A stretch of 62,775 nt of DNA, taken from contig CAYWOO010000110.1 of the NCBI GenBank assembly GCA_964458665.1, positions 1-62,775 of the forward strand. Direction: 5' to 3'. Positions 57,933-62,775 of the stretch are shown here, in pieces (the first letter of the stretch is position 1; every line of letters starts with the position of its first letter). The notes below the pieces were generated by a model. The model did not search any database, was not told where the DNA came from, and worked only from the letters and a program-made list of their open reading frames with translations. This DNA is from an uncultured Dehalococcoidia bacterium. GTDB taxonomy: Bacteria; Chloroflexota; Dehalococcoidia; DSTF01; JACRBR01. The translations under genes were made by a program, and so were the position numbers.

Positions 57933-58242
57933 CGTCGGGGTGGACGATGACGTCTTCGGTTTCGTCTTCGCGATCGCGGCGGGTGCGGCCGGCGGTAACG
58001 ACGTTGGTCACGAGCAGGTGCGCGAGGCTGTAGCTGACGCCGAGCAGGGCGGCGATCTGTAGCACGAACGCGGCGGGGTTGACCGAGCCCTCGTTGATGA
58101 TGAAGGCGATGAGCATGCCGGTGGCGAAGGCGGCGAAGACGGGGAAGGATCGCCAGCGCCAGTCGGGGCGGGAGCGGGTTTTCGCTGGGTGCGGTTCGGC
58201 CGTCGGTGAGGAGCTTGGTTGGGGGCGTTTTTTGGTGGGCAT
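57925..58242 (-). CDS. Small two-TM membrane protein
   Basis: Two hydrophobic helices with charged termini. Confidence 0.7.
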   Translation of the reverse strand: MPTKKRPQPSSSPTAEPHPAKTRSRPDWRWRSFPVFAAFATGMLIAFIINEGSVNPAAFVLQIAALLGVSYSLAHLLVTNVVTAGRTRRDREDETEDVIVHPDEQ

Positions 58243-58329
58243 CAGGGCGTGCCGGCGGGCGCACAGCCGTGCGCCCCTACGCGGGCGTTGGTGGCGCACA
58301 CGATCTGTGGGTTCAGAGTGATCGCGTGT

Positions 58330-58605
58330 GCTGCGTCGGTCCGGCGTTGCCGGACGGACAGCCGGGGGCGGCTATCCCACATCGAAGAGTCGCGGTCATT
58401 CGTTGCGCACGCGACCGTTGGGCGCTGGTCGATCGAGCGTTGTGCGTAGGTCCGGCTATGCCGGACGGACAGGCGAGGACGGCTATCCCACATCGAATGT
58501 GCGGAGTCGTTCGGGACGCACGCGACCGGCTCGCGCGTCGCGATGGGGTGTGCTGCGTTGGTTCGGCTGTGCCGGACGGAAAGGCGAGGACGGCTATCCC
58601 ACATA
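58330..58605 (-). repeat. Degenerate tandem array, 3 x about 111 bp, with GTGG-headed REP (..CGGCTATCCCACAT)
   Basis: Units at about 58341, 58452 and 58563; a single GTAG REP lies at 58257-58280. Confidence 0.85.
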
Positions 58606-58657
58606 GGGCCGGCGCTGCCCGTGGTGGCAAACATCGATTGAGGCTGCAGTTTGTTGG

Positions 58658-58975
58658 TCATGCGCGCCTCTTGTAGCGGCGGGAGTGCTCGCTGCTTCTG
58701 CGGGGCGATCGGGCTGTTGCGGGAACGGCCGGGCCTGGCGCATCGGTGGTCGCCGGGTCGCGCTCCGTGCCTGCGAGGCAGGTGTTGCAGGCAAACTGTA
58801 GCGCTAAATACTGCTCGTCGACCCAGACCTGGCCACAGTCTTTGGATTCGACGTCGTTGCGCTGGTTGAGGTGGAAGCGGTTGTCGCACCAATTGCACTC
58901 GGCCGTCCTCGCCGCGTCGGCGGACTCGCCGCAGACGTTGCATATGAATGTGGAAGGGGCGGCGTCGGAGCTCAT
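58658..58975 (-). CDS. Small Cys/His-rich zinc-finger protein (C4HC3-like)
   Basis: CNVC-x11-CNWC-x4-H-x11-C-x15-CNTC; lies just downstream of the nucleotidyltransferase gene. Confidence 0.75.
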   Translation of the reverse strand: MSSDAAPSTFICNVCGESADAARTAECNWCDNRFHLNQRNDVESKDCGQVWVDEQYLALQFACNTCLAGTERDPATTDAPGPAVPATARSPRRSSEHSRRYKRRA

Positions 58976-58986
58976 CGGGAGTCCAG

Positions 58987-60276
58987 TCAGTTCACGTTGA
59001 ATTCGATGGGGGCGTGGGCGGCGCCGGCATCGCGGATGCTCTTCGCAAAGCGGAGCACGAGTGCACGCTCGTCGTCGCGATCGGTCGCCCACCCGTCGAG
59101 GCGCGCCGCCCGGACGAGCTGGAGGCCGCGTTGTACCTGTGGCCCGGCGGGTACCCCCATCTCGATCAGTTCGTCACCACGGAGGATTGGCCTCACGTTG
59201 CGCCACTCCGCAAGGTAGCGGAGGGCCAGTTGCCGGGCAATCGGGTCGGATTCGATGGCGGCCCGTGCGGCGACCGCAGCGAGCGGGAAGCGATCGAGCA
59301 GCACGACGACGCCGGACGGCTTCGCGTCCGGCCTGCGCAGCATCGCGGCGACGCTCTGCATCGAGGCTGTGCCCGTGACCGCCTCGGCTTCGCTGCGCTT
59401 GAGTTTGAGGCGCGCGACGATCGCTGATGCTTCGGCGGGCGACGCGTTAGCGCTGAGGAGCGCGAAGCCGTACGGCAGCGCGGGCACGCGGTTCGGTACG
59501 GGATCCGCTAACGCGGTGCTGCGCGCGCGGTCCCACGAAAGTGCGGCGTGGATCTGCTGAAGAGCGGCGTATCGTACGGCAGCCTCGAGGGCGGATCCGC
59601 CGGTCGCTTCGCCGAGGATCAGTTCCAGTTCGCGGCGCAGGCGTTCGCCGCCGATGGCGCCGATGTAGGCGAGATCGCGCGTGAGAACGGTTGCGGTGTG
59701 CGGTTCGAGTGTGAACCCGAGGCGGGCGGCGTAGCGCAAGGCGCGGAACATGCGCGTGGCGTCGTCCTGGAACGACGCATCGTGGAGGACGCGAATGCGG
59801 CGCGCGGCGATGTCGGCAAGGCCGTCACATGGGTCGAGTAGCGCGCCTTCGCCGGAGAGGCGGAGGGCGATCGCGTTCATCGCGAAATCGCGACGGTGGA
59901 GGTCGGCCTCGATGCCGGCCGGAGCGATACGGGGGAGCGCACCGGGACGGGCGTACGCCTCGCTGCGTGCGGTCGCCGCGTCGATGCGTGTGCCGCCGAC
60001 GATCGCGCTGGCGGTGCGAAAGCGCGCGTGTACGGTGAGTTTCGTATCGGGCAGCGCGGCGTGCAGGATCGAAGGCGCGTCGCACTCCATGACGAGGTCG
60101 AGGTCTGTCATTTTGCGGTCGAGCAGCAGGTCGCGCACGGCGCCCGCGACGGCGTAGACCGCGCAGTGCGGCGCCGCAGCGGCCACGATCCGCTCTATGG
60201 CATCGCGGGTCGTTGCGGGGAGCTGCGCGAGCAGATCGCGGCGCAGTTGCGCGGGGGATGCATCGCTGCTTGTCAT
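58987..60276 (-). CDS. tRNA nucleotidyltransferase / poly(A) polymerase family (class II)
   Basis: AGAVRDLL, DLDL, RRDFAMNA, SFQDDATRMFRALRYAARLGF, GERLRREL. Confidence 0.9.
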   Translation of the reverse strand: MTSSDASPAQLRRDLLAQLPATTRDAIERIVAAAAPHCAVYAVAGAVRDLLLDRKMTDLDLVMECDAPSILHAALPDTKLTVHARFRTASAIVGGTRIDAATARSEAYARPGALPRIAPAGIEADLHRRDFAMNAIALRLSGEGALLDPCDGLADIAARRIRVLHDASFQDDATRMFRALRYAARLGFTLEPHTATVLTRDLAYIGAIGGERLRRELELILGEATGGSALEAAVRYAALQQIHAALSWDRARSTALADPVPNRVPALPYGFALLSANASPAEASAIVARLKLKRSEAEAVTGTASMQSVAAMLRRPDAKPSGVVVLLDRFPLAAVAARAAIESDPIARQLALRYLAEWRNVRPILRGDELIEMGVPAGPQVQRGLQLVRAARLDGWATDRDDERALVLRFAKSIRDAGAAHAPIEFNVN

Positions 60277-60304
60277 CGCTCTGGAGTATAGAGTCGCTGG
60301 CCGC

Positions 60305-60334
60305 TTGACAGTCCGACCGCGTGGTACCTATGAT
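60305..60334 (+). promoter_or_regulatory. Sigma70-type promoter upstream of the structured RNA / rnc
   Basis: TTGACA-N18-TATGAT. Confidence 0.7.
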
Positions 60335-60340
60335 CGGGGC

Positions 60341-60488
60341 GGCCTGGCGGCTGGTATGGGTTCAATCGGATGAGCGGGCGCGTGGGGAAGGAACCCCGAT
60401 GGCCGCAACCGAATGGAGTGAGAGGAACGCGATCGGCTGGGGGATGGTGCGCCATCTTTCGCCGGGCCAGGTGCCTGTCTCTCTTTTC
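60341..60488 (+). ncRNA. Candidate structured ncRNA or rnc leader
   Basis: The 5' arm GGCCTGGCG at the predicted +1 pairs with CGCCGGGCC (60460-60468); nested helices; pyrimidine tract at 60479-60488. Confidence 0.5.
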
Positions 60489-60578
60489 GATTGCCGCCCT
60501 CTGCGACCGCATCATGCGGTCGTCGCCGTTTTCACGCCGTACGTGGCTAGACTGCCCCGTGCGACGAGAGGTACGCAG

Positions 60579-61292
60579 TTGCCCGACTGGAGATCGCTCG
60601 AGGCCCGGCTTCACCTCAAGTTCAAGAATCCGGCCCTCCTCAAGCAGGCCCTCATCCACACGTCCTATCTGAATGAGAACCCGGGGATCGACGTTGGCTC
60701 GAACGAGCGGATGGAGTTCCTGGGCGATGCCGCGCTGGGTGTCGTCGTGGCGCAGCAGCTGTATCTGGAGTACCCGGACGTGGATGAAGGCAAGCTGACG
60801 GAGCTGCGCGCACACCTGGTGCGGCGGGACACGCTGGCACGGGCTGCGGCGCGCCTGGAACTGGGTGAGTTTCTACAGCTCGGGCGCGGCGAAGACGCGG
60901 CGGGTGGGCGGAAGCGGCCAACGAACATGGCGCGTGCGTACGAGGCGCTGGTCGGCGCGATCTTCCTCGACGGCGGCATCGTGAAGGTGCGGGCGTTCGT
61001 GAAACGCAGCCTGGGCGTCGAGCTGGCGGGCCTGCGGAAGAGCGGCATGCCGTACGACCCGAAGTCGAAACTGCAAGAGGTCGTGCAGTCGAAGTGGCAG
61101 ACGACGCCATCGTACAAACTGCTGCGGACCGAAGGGCCGGACCACGCGCGCCGGTTTACTGTGCAGGTGATGGTCGGCAGGCGCAGCATGGGCACGGGCG
61201 AGGGGCGGAGCAAGCAGATGGCGGAAAAACAAGCAGCGCAAGCGGCACTGGAAGAGATCGAGAAGAGCGAAGGAGAACTCGTTGTATCTTAA
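60579..61292 (+). CDS. rnc: Ribonuclease III
   Basis: NERMEFLGDAAL signature, YEALVGAIFLD, dsRBD PKSKLQE...GPDHARRF. TTG start after GAGAGG inferred. Confidence 0.95.
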   Translation: MPDWRSLEARLHLKFKNPALLKQALIHTSYLNENPGIDVGSNERMEFLGDAALGVVVAQQLYLEYPDVDEGKLTELRAHLVRRDTLARAAARLELGEFLQLGRGEDAAGGRKRPTNMARAYEALVGAIFLDGGIVKVRAFVKRSLGVELAGLRKSGMPYDPKSKLQEVVQSKWQTTPSYKLLRTEGPDHARRFTVQVMVGRRSMGTGEGRSKQMAEKQAAQAALEEIEKSEGELVVS

Positions 61293-62775
61293 GCGTCTCG
61301 ATGTCCAGGGCTTCAAGAGCTTCGCCAACAAGACGCAACTCCAGTTTGCGCCGGGCGTCACGTGCGTCGTCGGGCCGAACGGCACCGGCAAGACGAACGT
61401 GGCCGATTCGCTGCGTTGGGTGCTGGGCGAGCACGCGAGCCGGGCATTGCGCGCGCGCAAGACCGAAGACGTGATCTTCGCCGGCAGCGACAAGCGGGCG
61501 CCGCTGGGTGTCGCCGAAGTGAGCATCACACTCGACAACAGCCGGCACTGGCTGCCGATCGAGTTCGACGAGGTCGTCGTGACGCGCCGCGCGTATCGCA
61601 GCGGCGAGAACGAATACTTGATCAACAACTCGAAGGTGCGGCTGCGTGACGTCGTCGAGCTGTTCATGCGGGCGCAGGTGGGGCAGAACAGCTACGCGTT
61701 CATGGGGCAGGGCATGGTGGAGCAGGTGCTGAGCCTGCGGCCCGAAGACCGCCGCGCGTTGATCGAAGAAGCCGCCGACGTGCGGCTCTTCCGCGACAAG
61801 CTCGAGGATGCGCAGCGCAAGCTGAAGCAGACGCGCGAGAACACCGACCGCGTGCGCATGCTGGTGCGCGAGATCGAGCCGAGGATCAATCAGCTCGAGC
61901 GGCAGGCAGGGCGCGCGGTGAAGTATCAGGAACTGGCGCGGGAACTCGCTGCCACGTTGCACGTCTGGTACGCGCACCAGTGGCAGGAGATCAACAGCTT
62001 GCTGTTGTCCGCGATCACCACGCAGGACCAGCGCAACGAAGCGTTCGAGCAGGTAAAGGCGGAGGCGAAAGCCTGCGACGACGGCCTCGCGCAGTTGCGC
62101 GTGGCGATTGACGAGCGCAAGCGTGAGATCGGCGCGCGCGAGGCCCGGCTGCGGACGATGCAGGACTACGTAGCCGACCTCGAACGTCGCGTGGCGCTGG
62201 ACGGCGAGCGCGGCAAGATGCTGGCGCAGCGCCTGGAGGAACTGACGGCTGAGCTTGCGTCGCTGCGAAGCGACGAAGCGGCGCAGGGCGAGAGCGCGCC
62301 GCTGACTCAAACGGCGGAATTGGAGGCCCAACTCAACGCAGCTCGCGCGGAGCTGGCGACGCATCGGGCGCGGCTGGGTGAAGTCGAGCAGGAGCTGCTG
62401 CGCGTGCAACGCGCCGCGCTGGCGAGCGAGCAGGCAGCGGCACGCGCGCTGGCGGCTGTTGAGGATCTGAGCCGCCGCATTACAGAAAGCACGGATACGG
62501 TAGCGCGGCTGCGGCTTGAGCGTGATGCCTCGATCGAGGATCGCCGCAAGGCGATCAACGAGCTGGCGGCGTGGGCGAAGGAGTACGCGGGCATCGCGCA
62601 CGAGCTGACGCTGACGGGGCCGGGGCTGGATCAGGCGATCGCCGACCGAGCGAAGGAATCCGATGCTGGTGCCGAGTACCGGCGTGGGCAGACCACGATC
62701 GAGGAAGATCTACGGTCGCTGCGCAGCCAGATCGACGCGGTAGGCGTCCGCATGGAGATGATGGAGTCGATCGAC
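61282..62775 (+). CDS. smc: Chromosome segregation protein SMC (5' part; runs off the window)
   Basis: Manual translation MYLKRLDVQGFKSFANK...VVGPNGTGKTNVADSLRWVLGE, followed by coiled coil. Confidence 0.95.
   Translation, partial: MYLKRLDVQGFKSFANKTQLQFAPGVTCVVGPNGTGKTNVADSLRWVLGEHASRALRARKTEDVIFAGSDKRAPLGVAEVSITLDNSRHWLPIEFDEVVVTRRAYRSGENEYLINNSKVRLRDVVELFMRAQVGQNSYAFMGQGMVEQVLSLRPEDRRALIEEAADVRLFRDKLEDAQRKLKQTRENTDRVRMLVREIEPRINQLERQAGRAVKYQELARELAATLHVWYAHQWQEINSLLLSAITTQDQRNEAFEQVKAEAKACDDGLAQLRVAIDERKREIGAREARLRTMQDYVADLERRVALDGERGKMLAQRLEELTAELASLRSDEAAQGESAPLTQTAELEAQLNAARAELATHRARLGEVEQELLRVQRAALASEQAAARALAAVEDLSRRITESTDTVARLRLERDASIEDRRKAINELAAWAKEYAGIAHELTLTGPGLDQAIADRAKESDAGAEYRRGQTTIEEDLRSLRSQIDAVGVRMEMMESID

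What the first reader, a model, noticed from the sequence alone, without database searches (positions are those of the whole stretch)
60305..60578. Promoter-delimited structured RNA (about 130-150 nt) ahead of rnc-smc: 6S-like sRNA or RNase III autoregulatory leader
Seen: TTGACA-N18-TATGAT places +1 near 60341, exactly at a 9-bp closing helix (GGCCTGGCG / CGCCGGGCC). Nested helices follow: GCTGGT/ATCGGC, TTCAATCGG/CCGAATGGA, GCGG/CCGC, GGGG/CCCC, plus a side hairpin GATGG-TGCG-CCATC. There is a purine-rich internal bubble and a CTCTCTTTT tract. The 5' arm can alternatively pair with CCAGGTGCC (60467-60475). The rnc start is about 240 nt from +1. Knowledge: E. coli rnc is autoregulated by RNase III cleavage of a leader stem (rncO); 6S RNAs are rods with a central bubble. 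Inference: an unannotated ncRNA or leader.
Basis: partly seen in the sequence, partly recalled or inferred. Interest (0 to 1): 0.6.

Follow-up and report, generated by a model that had tools for sequence, protein, structure and literature searches.

The report
Structured start of RNase III mRNA
The folded RNA is real and conserved, but it is not a free-standing small RNA: it is the front end of the RNase III (rnc) messenger in one family of uncultured Dehalococcoidia, it wraps an extra upstream in-frame start codon, and it probably controls how much RNase III is made.

Summary
The element has no Rfam match. It is single-copy and always sits directly before rnc-smc. A covariance model finds it in 29 of 35 genomes of one Dehalococcoidia family and in 23 metagenome contigs, and nowhere else in the order or class.

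Its fold is a three-way junction (P1-P6) plus a downstream hairpin. Covariation supports it: 92% of cells pair against 33-46% in slid controls, and 20 pairs change on both sides.

It is not a separate sRNA or a 6S RNA. An ATG at 60399, with a Shine-Dalgarno-like motif in the P5 loop, opens a 60-codon frame that runs into the canonical TTG start of rnc at 60579.
- The frame is kept in 45 of 50 sequences, and every length is a multiple of 3.
- The four frame-broken sequences have lost the ATG, and two also the SD.
- Public gene calls use the 297-aa form.
- The 60 codons show no codon periodicity, so the RNA fold, not the peptide, is under selection.

Sister families have unrelated long leaders before rnc.

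Best reading: a cis-acting operator on the rnc mRNA, probably for RNase III autoregulation. That last step is inferred, not shown.

The parts
60305..60334 (+). Sigma-70-type promoter: -35 at 60305-60310, 18-nt spacer, -10 at 60329-60334. The predicted transcript start is near 60341.
   Evidence: 11 of 12 consensus positions, 0.1 sites expected by chance. Both hexamers are conserved in 20 of 20 aligned relatives. An equivalent promoter lies 141-297 nt upstream of rnc in 15 of 15 genomes without the element (g9 and four sister families). The start site itself is inferred.
60341..60398 (+). 5' untranslated region (58 nt). It holds the 5' strands of P1-P4 and the P5 hairpin.
   Evidence: Indels here are not multiples of 3: the phase to the rnc start is scattered 10/15/23 at P1.
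60341..60468 (+). Three-way-junction domain.
- P1: 60341-60349 with 60460-60468.
- P2: 60350-60355 with 60432-60437.
- P3: 60360-60363 with 60416-60419, and 60366-60369 with 60409-60412.
- P4: 60374-60377 with 60403-60406, and 60379-60380 with 60400-60401.
- P5: 60384-60387 with 60394-60397.
- P6 hairpin: 60439-60460.
   Evidence: 50 distinct sequences: 92.0% of cells pair against 33-46% when partners are slid; 20 pairs change on both sides; 0 of 500 shuffles reach the observed values. In one search, P6 own-versus-cross duplex energy gave 0 of 2000 permutations as low; P2 is weak at 50 of 2000. RNAalifold recovers P1, P3, P4, P5 and P6.
60386..60401 (+). Upstream translation start. A Shine-Dalgarno-like GGAAGGA sits in the P5 loop (60386-60392), followed by ATG at 60399-60401. 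The U and G of the ATG pair within P4.
   Evidence: The start codon is ATG in 43 of 50 sequences, GTG in 3 and TTG in 2. The P5 loop varies but keeps GGAG/AGGA-type motifs. All four frame-broken sequences have lost the ATG, and two of them also lack the SD-like loop.
60399..60578 (+). 60-codon in-frame leader, or N-terminal extension, of RNase III. It is translated, but its amino-acid sequence is not conserved.
   Evidence: The phase to the rnc start is 0 in 45 of 50 sequences, and lengths of 162-189 nt are all multiples of 3. No in-frame stop occurs in 46 of 50, against 23 and 9 in the other two frames. Codon-position entropy is 1.00/0.96/1.01, against 0.26/0.18/1.08 in the rnc core. There is no Pfam match. 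Public gene calls give the 297-aa form.
60420..60431 (+). Purine-rich 3' side of the large internal loop between P2 and P3.
   Evidence: It is conserved but 3 nt shorter in one clade. Its pairing with the downstream pyrimidine tract is not supported (1213 of 2000 permutations as low).
60469..60502 (+). Conserved unpaired stretch after P1. It is CU-rich in this genus and C-rich elsewhere, followed by a GGAUUGC-type motif.
   Evidence: No covarying partner was found.
60503..60532 (+). Conserved hairpin T (60503-60511 with 60515-60523) and a U run (60529-60532). It resembles a terminator but lies inside the translated leader.
   Evidence: The stem is nearly invariant while the loop varies. Two divergent members keep the hairpin through compensating changes that alter the peptide. 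Own-versus-cross energy gave 0 of 2000 permutations as low. It is not a dispersed repeat: 7 matches against 24 for the control pattern. The same hairpin with a U-rich tail lies 32-62 nt before rnc in 5 of 5 family f3 genomes and in family f4.
60566..60581 (+). Canonical rnc start: a Shine-Dalgarno motif GAGAGGT (60566-60572) and TTG (60579-60581).
   Evidence: The codon is TTG in 39 and GTG in 13 of 53 sequences, never CTG. The GAGGT is kept through the otherwise rare codons AGA and GGT. In sister families the same TTG is the start, in one case with an in-frame stop 6 nt upstream.
60579..61292 (+). RNase III core: catalytic domain plus dsRBD. It overlaps the TTG start of smc at 61282.
   Evidence: Pfam PF14622, PF00636 and PF00035 match. 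rnc follows the element in 53 of 53 loci, and smc follows wherever the locus extends far enough.

Best explanation
Positions 60341-60535 are the structured front end of the rnc-smc messenger RNA, not a separate RNA gene.

A near-consensus promoter starts transcription at about 60341. The first 128 nt fold into a three-way junction. It presents a ribosome-binding motif in the P5 loop and holds the neighbouring ATG (60399) inside helix P4. Ribosomes starting at that ATG read 60 codons in frame, through a second conserved hairpin, into the ancestral TTG start (60579). The gene therefore has two in-frame starts, giving a 297-aa and a 237-aa RNase III.

I propose that the fold is a cis-acting operator that sets RNase III output. 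The most likely effector is RNase III itself. Binding or cutting the roughly two-turn P3-P5 rod, or the stacked P1/P6 helices, would remove the 5'-terminal helix and the upstream start. That would leave a less stable message translated only from the weak TTG, which is negative feedback with a floor.

Shown: the structure, the linkage to rnc, the preserved frame and the two starts. Inferred: the transcript start, and that RNase III is the effector.
For: Conservation and covariation:
- The intergenic DNA is 70-94% identical across 19 genera while its flanks vary.
- 92% of cells pair against 33-46% in slid controls, and 20 pairs change on both sides.
- P6 and T covary.

Cis linkage:
- There is one copy per genome.
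- rnc starts about 40 nt after the model end in 53 of 53 loci.
- No conserved promoter lies in between.

Translation:
- The frame is kept in 45 of 50 sequences, only from the ATG onward.
- All four frame-broken sequences have lost the ATG, and two of them also the SD-like loop.
- The second start is conserved at synonymous sites.

The RNA, not the peptide, is selected:
- The 60 codons show no codon periodicity.
- Hairpin T is kept by changes that alter the peptide.
- The fold persists in sequences that lost upstream translation.

Wider context:
- All 15 genomes without the element (genus g9 of this family and four sister families) have a consensus promoter 141-297 nt before rnc, with unrelated leader sequences.
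- RNase III feedback through structures in its own mRNA is documented in E. coli (5' UTR), S. aureus and Streptomyces (coding region), and the site differs between lineages (PMC5371410, PMC3386247).
Against: - There are no expression, cleavage or binding data for this lineage.
- The internal loops are conserved in sequence more strictly than a plain dsRNA substrate would need, which points to a specific ligand or protein.
- There is no likeness to the 16S rRNA flanks, so no sign of substrate mimicry.
- No covarying alternative pairing, such as an antiterminator or SD sequestration, was found.
- The single-sequence fold is not more stable than shuffles.
- The element is missing from one genus of the family and from all other families. 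RNase III control clearly does not require it.
Confidence: 0.45

Rival explanations
1. The three-way junction is a translational riboswitch, or an operator for another protein. It binds a small molecule or a protein other than RNase III. Binding stabilises P4 over the ATG and so tunes use of the upstream start, and with it the ratio or total of RNase III (and of Smc downstream).
For: Internal loops and junction nucleotides are strongly conserved, the helices are short, and a variable-length peripheral hairpin (P6) is present, as in aptamers. The ATG pairs within P4 while the SD sits in a loop.
Against: The element occurs at only one locus per genome and only before rnc. It is confined to one family. 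There is no match to any Rfam riboswitch. No covarying expression-platform alternative was found. No obvious ligand logic exists for rnc-smc.
Confidence: 0.2
2. The element is a translation-coupled attenuator. Hairpin T with its U run stops transcription unless a ribosome that started at ATG 60399 follows the polymerase closely and prevents the hairpin from forming, as in the pyrBI leader. The 5' fold then only sets how often that ribosome loads.
For: A leader reading frame runs through a conserved GC-rich hairpin followed by U residues that are kept although the encoded residues vary. The same hairpin with a U-rich tail precedes rnc in families f3 and f4.
Against: The U run starts 6 nt after the stem, and the scan does not call it a terminator. 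Several members have no U run. In f3 and f4 the hairpin is not crossed by an in-frame ORF.
Confidence: 0.1
3. The element has no dedicated regulatory role. It is an ordinary 5' stabilising structure, plus a disordered N-terminal tail that RNase III acquired in this family. Conservation reflects mRNA stability and avoidance of out-of-frame translation.
For: The helix sits at the very 5' end (P1 starts at the predicted +1). The peptide is unconserved and predicted unstructured (pLDDT about 30, from a poor model). Four lineages lost the upstream start without losing rnc.
Against: The fold is elaborate, with six helices and conserved loops, and it is kept across about 19 genera and 50 sequences. 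It persists even where upstream translation was lost. Long leaders before rnc are universal in the order.
Confidence: 0.13
4. The element is an independent stable small RNA of about 190 nt, ending at hairpin T, that acts in trans. It could be 6S-like, or a C-rich seed RNA that targets Shine-Dalgarno sites. rnc would then be expressed by read-through.
For: It has its own strong promoter, a hairpin plus U run about 190 nt downstream, and a C-rich unpaired stretch before that hairpin. No canonical 6S was found in 41 relatives.
Against: - The frame-preserving translation from 60399 through hairpin T is at odds with a dedicated non-coding RNA.
- The 5' and 3' ends do not pair into a 6S rod, and there is no RF00013 match.
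- It is confined to one family, while sister families carry unrelated leaders at the same place.
- 6S genes have been reported in Chloroflexi with standard models (PMC7726162, citing Wehner 2014).
Confidence: 0.07

Closest known systems
rncO, the RNase III operator in the 5' UTR of the E. coli rnc-era-recO mRNA (Rfam RF00552; Matsunaga et al. 1996, as cited in PMC5371410)
   Same: Both are multi-helix structures at the very 5' end of the rnc operon transcript, made from the rnc promoter, acting in cis and specific to a lineage. In both, a helix sits at the 5' terminus.
   Different: There is no sequence or covariance-model similarity. The element here is a three-way junction that encloses a start codon and continues into translated sequence, whereas rncO is wholly untranslated. 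Cleavage by RNase III is shown for rncO and only inferred here.
RNase III feedback sites inside the rnc coding region of Staphylococcus aureus and Streptomyces coelicolor (PMC3386247)
   Same: Both are conserved irregular helices within translated rnc sequence. That paper notes that the feedback is preserved between bacteria while the site varies.
   Different: Those sites lie in the body of the gene. This one lies in a lineage-specific in-frame extension upstream of the canonical start.
6S RNA (Rfam RF00013)
   Same: The size is similar (about 190 nt), it has its own promoter, and it is co-transcribed with a downstream gene, as in ssrS-ygfA.
   Different: There is no model match, no rod closed by the two ends, and no central bubble. 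It is translated from 60399, restricted to one family, and always before rnc.
Genes with two in-frame starts, such as infB (IF2 alpha/beta) and clpB (from general knowledge)
   Same: An upstream and a downstream start in one frame, each with its own ribosome-binding motif, would give a long and a short protein.
   Different: In those cases the extra segment is a conserved protein domain. Here the extra 60 residues are not conserved as protein, and the RNA fold is.
pyrBI-type attenuators, where a leader ORF crosses a terminator hairpin (from general knowledge)
   Same: A reading frame runs through a GC-rich hairpin followed by U residues, upstream of the main coding region.
   Different: The leader frame here does not stop. 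It fuses to the enzyme. The U run is displaced from the stem, and no pause or nucleotide-sensing logic is evident.

Membership tests
rncO (RF00552) | Match to the family covariance model | tested here: not met
   cmscan of 58000-62775 at E up to 10 gave no rncO hit.
rncO (RF00552) | Lies in the 5' leader of the rnc operon transcript | tested here: met
   The promoter is at 60305-60334. The element is fixed before rnc in 53 of 53 loci.
rncO (RF00552) | Cleaved by RNase III, with resulting mRNA destabilisation | not testable with these tools
   This needs an in vitro cleavage assay or rnc-dependent reporter assays.
6S RNA (RF00013) | Match to the family covariance model | tested here: not met
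   There is no hit in the window, in 41 relatives, or in 5 genomes at E up to 10.
6S RNA (RF00013) | Long rod closed by pairing of the 5' and 3' ends, with a large central bubble | tested here: not met
   The covariation-supported fold is a three-way junction closed at 60341/60468. It has a 70-nt 3' part that does not pair with the 5' end.
6S RNA (RF00013) | Non-coding | tested here: not met
   The reading frame is kept from ATG 60399 into rnc in 45 of 50 sequences.
6S RNA (RF00013) | Binds RNA polymerase holoenzyme and templates product RNA | not testable with these tools
   This needs biochemistry.
Riboswitch (generic) | Conserved aptamer-like fold with covariation | tested here: met
Riboswitch (generic) | Mutually exclusive alternative pairing (an expression platform) that is conserved or covaries | tested here: inconclusive
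   The candidate pairings show no own-versus-cross signal: P4 5' strand with T 5' strand, P4 3' strand with T 3' strand, and purine loop with CU tract. Two divergent members break them. However, pairing of the ATG within P4 could itself serve as the platform.
Riboswitch (generic) | Binds a ligand | not testable with these tools
   This needs in-line probing or a similar assay.
Protein-coding N-terminal extension of RNase III | Frame preserved, no in-frame stops, start codon with SD | tested here: met
   The public gene call is 297 aa.
Protein-coding N-terminal extension of RNase III | Purifying selection on the amino-acid sequence (third-position excess of change) | tested here: not met
   Entropy by codon position is 1.00/0.96/1.01, against 0.26/0.18/1.08 in the rnc core.
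Dispersed intergenic repeat (REP/MITE-like) | Many copies per genome at unrelated loci | tested here: not met
   There is one significant model hit per genome. The hairpin pattern is not enriched in the genome.

The most novel reading that the evidence does not exclude
The fold is an RNase III-operated isoform switch. Intact mRNA is translated from the upstream ATG into a 297-aa enzyme with a disordered tail. [quoted passage not shown] Only the weak TTG start on a shorter-lived message remains. One RNA structure would then set both the amount and the form of the enzyme that cuts it.
Probability: 0.2. Interest if true: 0.7.

Novelty: new variant of a known kind. Interest (0 to 1): 0.5.

Why it matters
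RNase III controls its own synthesis in the few bacteria studied, each time through a different site in its own mRNA. This adds an uncatalogued, covariation-supported RNA family from uncultured Dehalococcoidia.

It also has an unusual layout. The fold encloses a second, upstream in-frame start codon, and the sequence it overlaps is translated yet selected as RNA, not as protein.

There is a practical warning too. A region can pass a covariation test for structured RNA and still be translated, and gene callers will annotate such a regulatory leader as part of the enzyme.

Every family of this order that was sampled carries a long promoter-fed leader before rnc, which suggests that leader-based control of RNase III is general there.

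Tried and rejected
1. Rfam scan of 58000-62775 at E up to 10: only noise.
2. 6S model in 41 relatives, and in 5 genomes at E up to 10: nothing.
3. Single-sequence folding: z = -1.32, not informative.
4. Full-leader folds of 30 sequences, looking for a common partner of the rnc SD: the partners were inconsistent.
5. Blind scan of all column pairs for further helices or pseudoknots: nothing beyond the model.
6. Antiterminator idea, P4 5' strand pairing with T 5' strand. It forms 6-9 of 10 pairs in all sequences. It shows no own-versus-cross signal, and the two members whose T hairpin has changed sequence break it.
7. The following pairings were not supported:
   - P4 3' strand with T 3' strand;
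   - purine loop with CU tract (the 'SD mimic' idea);
   - the UUCAAUC motif with the GGAUUGC motif;
   - P5 loop with the 3' tail;
   - a lower extension of the T stem.
8. Mimicry of the pre-16S processing stalk: blastn-short of three leaders against the flanks of five 16S genes gave only chance 8-13-mers.
9. Degenerate pattern scan of genome contigs: swamped by chance hits in GC-rich genomes. Only 3 of 80 loci were real, and those served to name the lineage.
10. Model search with filters off on rnc loci of genus g9 and four sister families: noise only.
11. AlphaFold of the 297-aa form from a 40-row alignment: poor model (mean pLDDT 51). It shows only that residues 1-62 have no predicted structure.
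12. My first rnc coordinates were one base off. This was corrected.

Full report
**What is in the sequence**

The gap between a minus-strand nucleotidyltransferase gene (58987-60276) and rnc holds one strong sigma-70-type promoter. It is TTGACA at 60305, an 18-nt spacer, then TATGAT at 60329. That matches 11 of 12 consensus positions, with 0.1 such sites expected by chance. A single-sequence fold is no better than shuffled sequence (z = -1.32), so any case for structure has to come from comparing genomes. Rfam has no match, even at E = 10.

**Conservation and distribution**

- The intergenic DNA is 70-94% identical in 22 of 24 genomes of the same family, across 19 genera. The conserved block runs from the -35 box to a U run at about 60532, while the flanks vary.
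- A covariance model (R1) finds exactly one copy per genome in 29 of 35 genomes of that family.
- It finds none in 57 genomes of the four other families of the order, and none in 146 other genomes of the class.
- It also finds nothing with filters off on the rnc loci of five genomes that lack it.
- Three members carry NCBI titles naming Dehalococcoidia or Chloroflexota MAGs.
- An rnc-based scan of metagenomes added 23 loci. Every locus whose rnc is at least 76% identical has the element at the same spot. Those at 43% identity or less do not.
- rnc begins about 40 nt after the model end in 53 of 53 loci, and smc follows wherever the locus extends far enough.
- The element is not a dispersed repeat.
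- One row of the alignments (L042, from genome G051) comes from an unpublished genome.

**Structure**

The fold was assessed on 50 distinct sequences. It has helices P1 to P6 around a three-way junction, plus a downstream hairpin T.
- 92.0% of cells pair, against 33-46% when partners are slid by one to three columns.
- 20 pairs change on both sides.
- No shuffle out of 500 reaches the observed values (one search gives the same on 30 sequences).
- RNAalifold recovers P1, P3, P4, P5, P6 and T.
- P6 varies in length and covaries at all six pairs. In one genus P5 is replaced by a different hairpin. In another, P1 keeps pairing through two double changes.
- P2 has only a weak signal.

**The turn: most of the element is translated**

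Instead I found that the frame upstream of the TTG start is open in nearly all relatives.
- The phase of conserved blocks relative to the rnc start is scattered upstream of 60399 (10/15/23 at P1). From the P4 3' strand onward it is constant in 44-48 of 50 sequences.
- The distance from the conserved ATG (60399) to the TTG (60579) is 180 nt here. In relatives it is 162-189 nt, a multiple of 3 in 45 of 50 sequences.
- The in-frame reading has no stop in 46 of 50 sequences. The other two frames are stop-free in 23 and 9.
- A Shine-Dalgarno-like motif lies in the P5 loop, 6-7 nt before the ATG. The loop sequence varies but keeps such a motif.
- All four sequences that break the frame have lost the ATG (GTG in three, deleted in one). 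Two of them also lack the SD-like loop.
- Public gene calls give the 297-aa form.

So ribosomes very probably start at 60399.

The peptide itself is not what selection preserves.
- Entropy at codon positions 1, 2 and 3 is 1.00, 0.96 and 1.01 in the 60 codons. In the rnc core it is 0.26, 0.18 and 1.08.
- Hairpin T is invariant at synonymous sites, while its loop, and therefore the encoded residues, vary.
- Two divergent members rebuild T with a different sequence and a different peptide.
- The extension has no Pfam match.
- It has no predicted structure in an admittedly poor model.

**The canonical start is real too**

- The codon at 60579 is TTG in 39 and GTG in 13 of 53 sequences. It is never CTG, the usual leucine codon in GC-rich genomes.
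- It is preceded by GAGGT, kept through the rare codons AGA and GGT.
- In sister families the same TTG is the start, in one case with an in-frame stop 6 nt upstream.
- The four frame-broken family members must use it.

The family therefore has two in-frame starts. The upstream one is a family-level addition: genus g9, which lacks the R1 element, also has an SD plus ATG in frame, 153 nt upstream.

**Context in the order**

I examined 15 genomes that lack the element: genus g9 of this family and the four sister families.
- All have a consensus promoter 141-297 nt upstream of rnc, with leader sequences unrelated to this one.
- Families f3 (5 of 5 genomes) and f4 end their leaders with the same hairpin as T plus a U-rich tail, 32-62 nt before the start.
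- The 5' ends of several leaders resemble the P1 5' strand.

Long promoter-fed leaders before rnc are thus general here. The family element is one well-conserved version of them.

**Mechanism**

What is shown:
- that fold encloses the upstream start, with the SD in a loop and the U and G of the ATG paired in P4;
- frame-preserving translation through the rest of it.

What is inferred is that it acts as an operator for RNase III output, with RNase III as the effector. The grounds for that inference are as follows.
- The element is tied to this one gene.
- RNase III feedback through its own mRNA is known in E. coli (5' UTR), S. aureus and Streptomyces (coding region), and the site differs between lineages (PMC5371410, PMC3386247).
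- The P3-P5 rod is about two helical turns long.
- P1 sits at the 5' terminus, where its removal would expose the message.

Against this reading:
- The loops are conserved more strictly than a dsRNA substrate needs.
- I found no mimicry of the pre-16S stalk.
- I found no covarying alternative pairing.

A riboswitch-like or other protein-binding operator, a translation-coupled attenuator built on hairpin T, or a merely stabilising structure all remain possible.

A free-standing sRNA or a 6S RNA is unlikely. The fold does not fit, there is no model match, it is restricted to one family, and it is translated.

**Earlier notes of this scan**

Other agents reported structured leaders before accessory RNase III genes in Clostridia. 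They also reported cases where a 'leader' before rnc turned out to be a dispersed repeat. The first agrees in kind with this finding but is not independent evidence. The second prompted the copy-number check, which this element passes.

**Verdict**

This is a real, uncatalogued RNA structure. It is a new variant of the known theme of rnc leaders and operators. Its unusual feature is that it overlaps an alternative in-frame start and a translated but non-conserved leader.

Noticed in passing
window 60274-60291, minus strand: The divergent gene (58987-60276) has the Pfam PolyA_pol head domain and so belongs to the CCA-adding or poly(A) polymerase family. On its own strand it has a -10-like TATACT (60290-60285) only 8 nt before its ATG (60276-60274), and no good -35. 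The motif is conserved wherever this gene is the neighbour. This suggests a leaderless or nearly leaderless mRNA.
   Followed up: partly
window 61282-61292: smc starts with TTG at 61282 and overlaps the last codons of rnc (stop at 61290-61292). rnc and smc are therefore probably translationally coupled, and whatever controls the leader also affects smc.
   Followed up: no
L056, L058, L215-L218 (rnc loci of families f3 and f4): A hairpin with the same stem as hairpin T, followed by a U-rich tail, lies 32-62 nt before rnc in two sister families whose leaders are otherwise unalignable. This is deep conservation of a simple hairpin's sequence.
   Followed up: partly
L057, L219-L221 (family f5) and L056, L214 (family f4): The leaders of f4 and f5 share blocks with each other: a GGCGCU...CC.GGC start and an AUCGCUGCGAGC block. 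They look like a second, separate rnc-leader RNA family. No model was built for them.
   Followed up: no
all rnc loci of the order: The promoters share an extended -10 of the form CCTATnAT after TTGACA and a 17-18 nt spacer. The divergent gene's -10 has the same CCTATACT form. This may be a lineage-typical promoter consensus.
   Followed up: no
L055 (genus g9 of the same family): This genus lacks the R1 element. It keeps a small hairpin that presents AAGGAG in its loop, followed by an in-frame ATG 153 nt before the TTG start. The upstream start is therefore more widely kept than the rest of the fold.
   Followed up: partly
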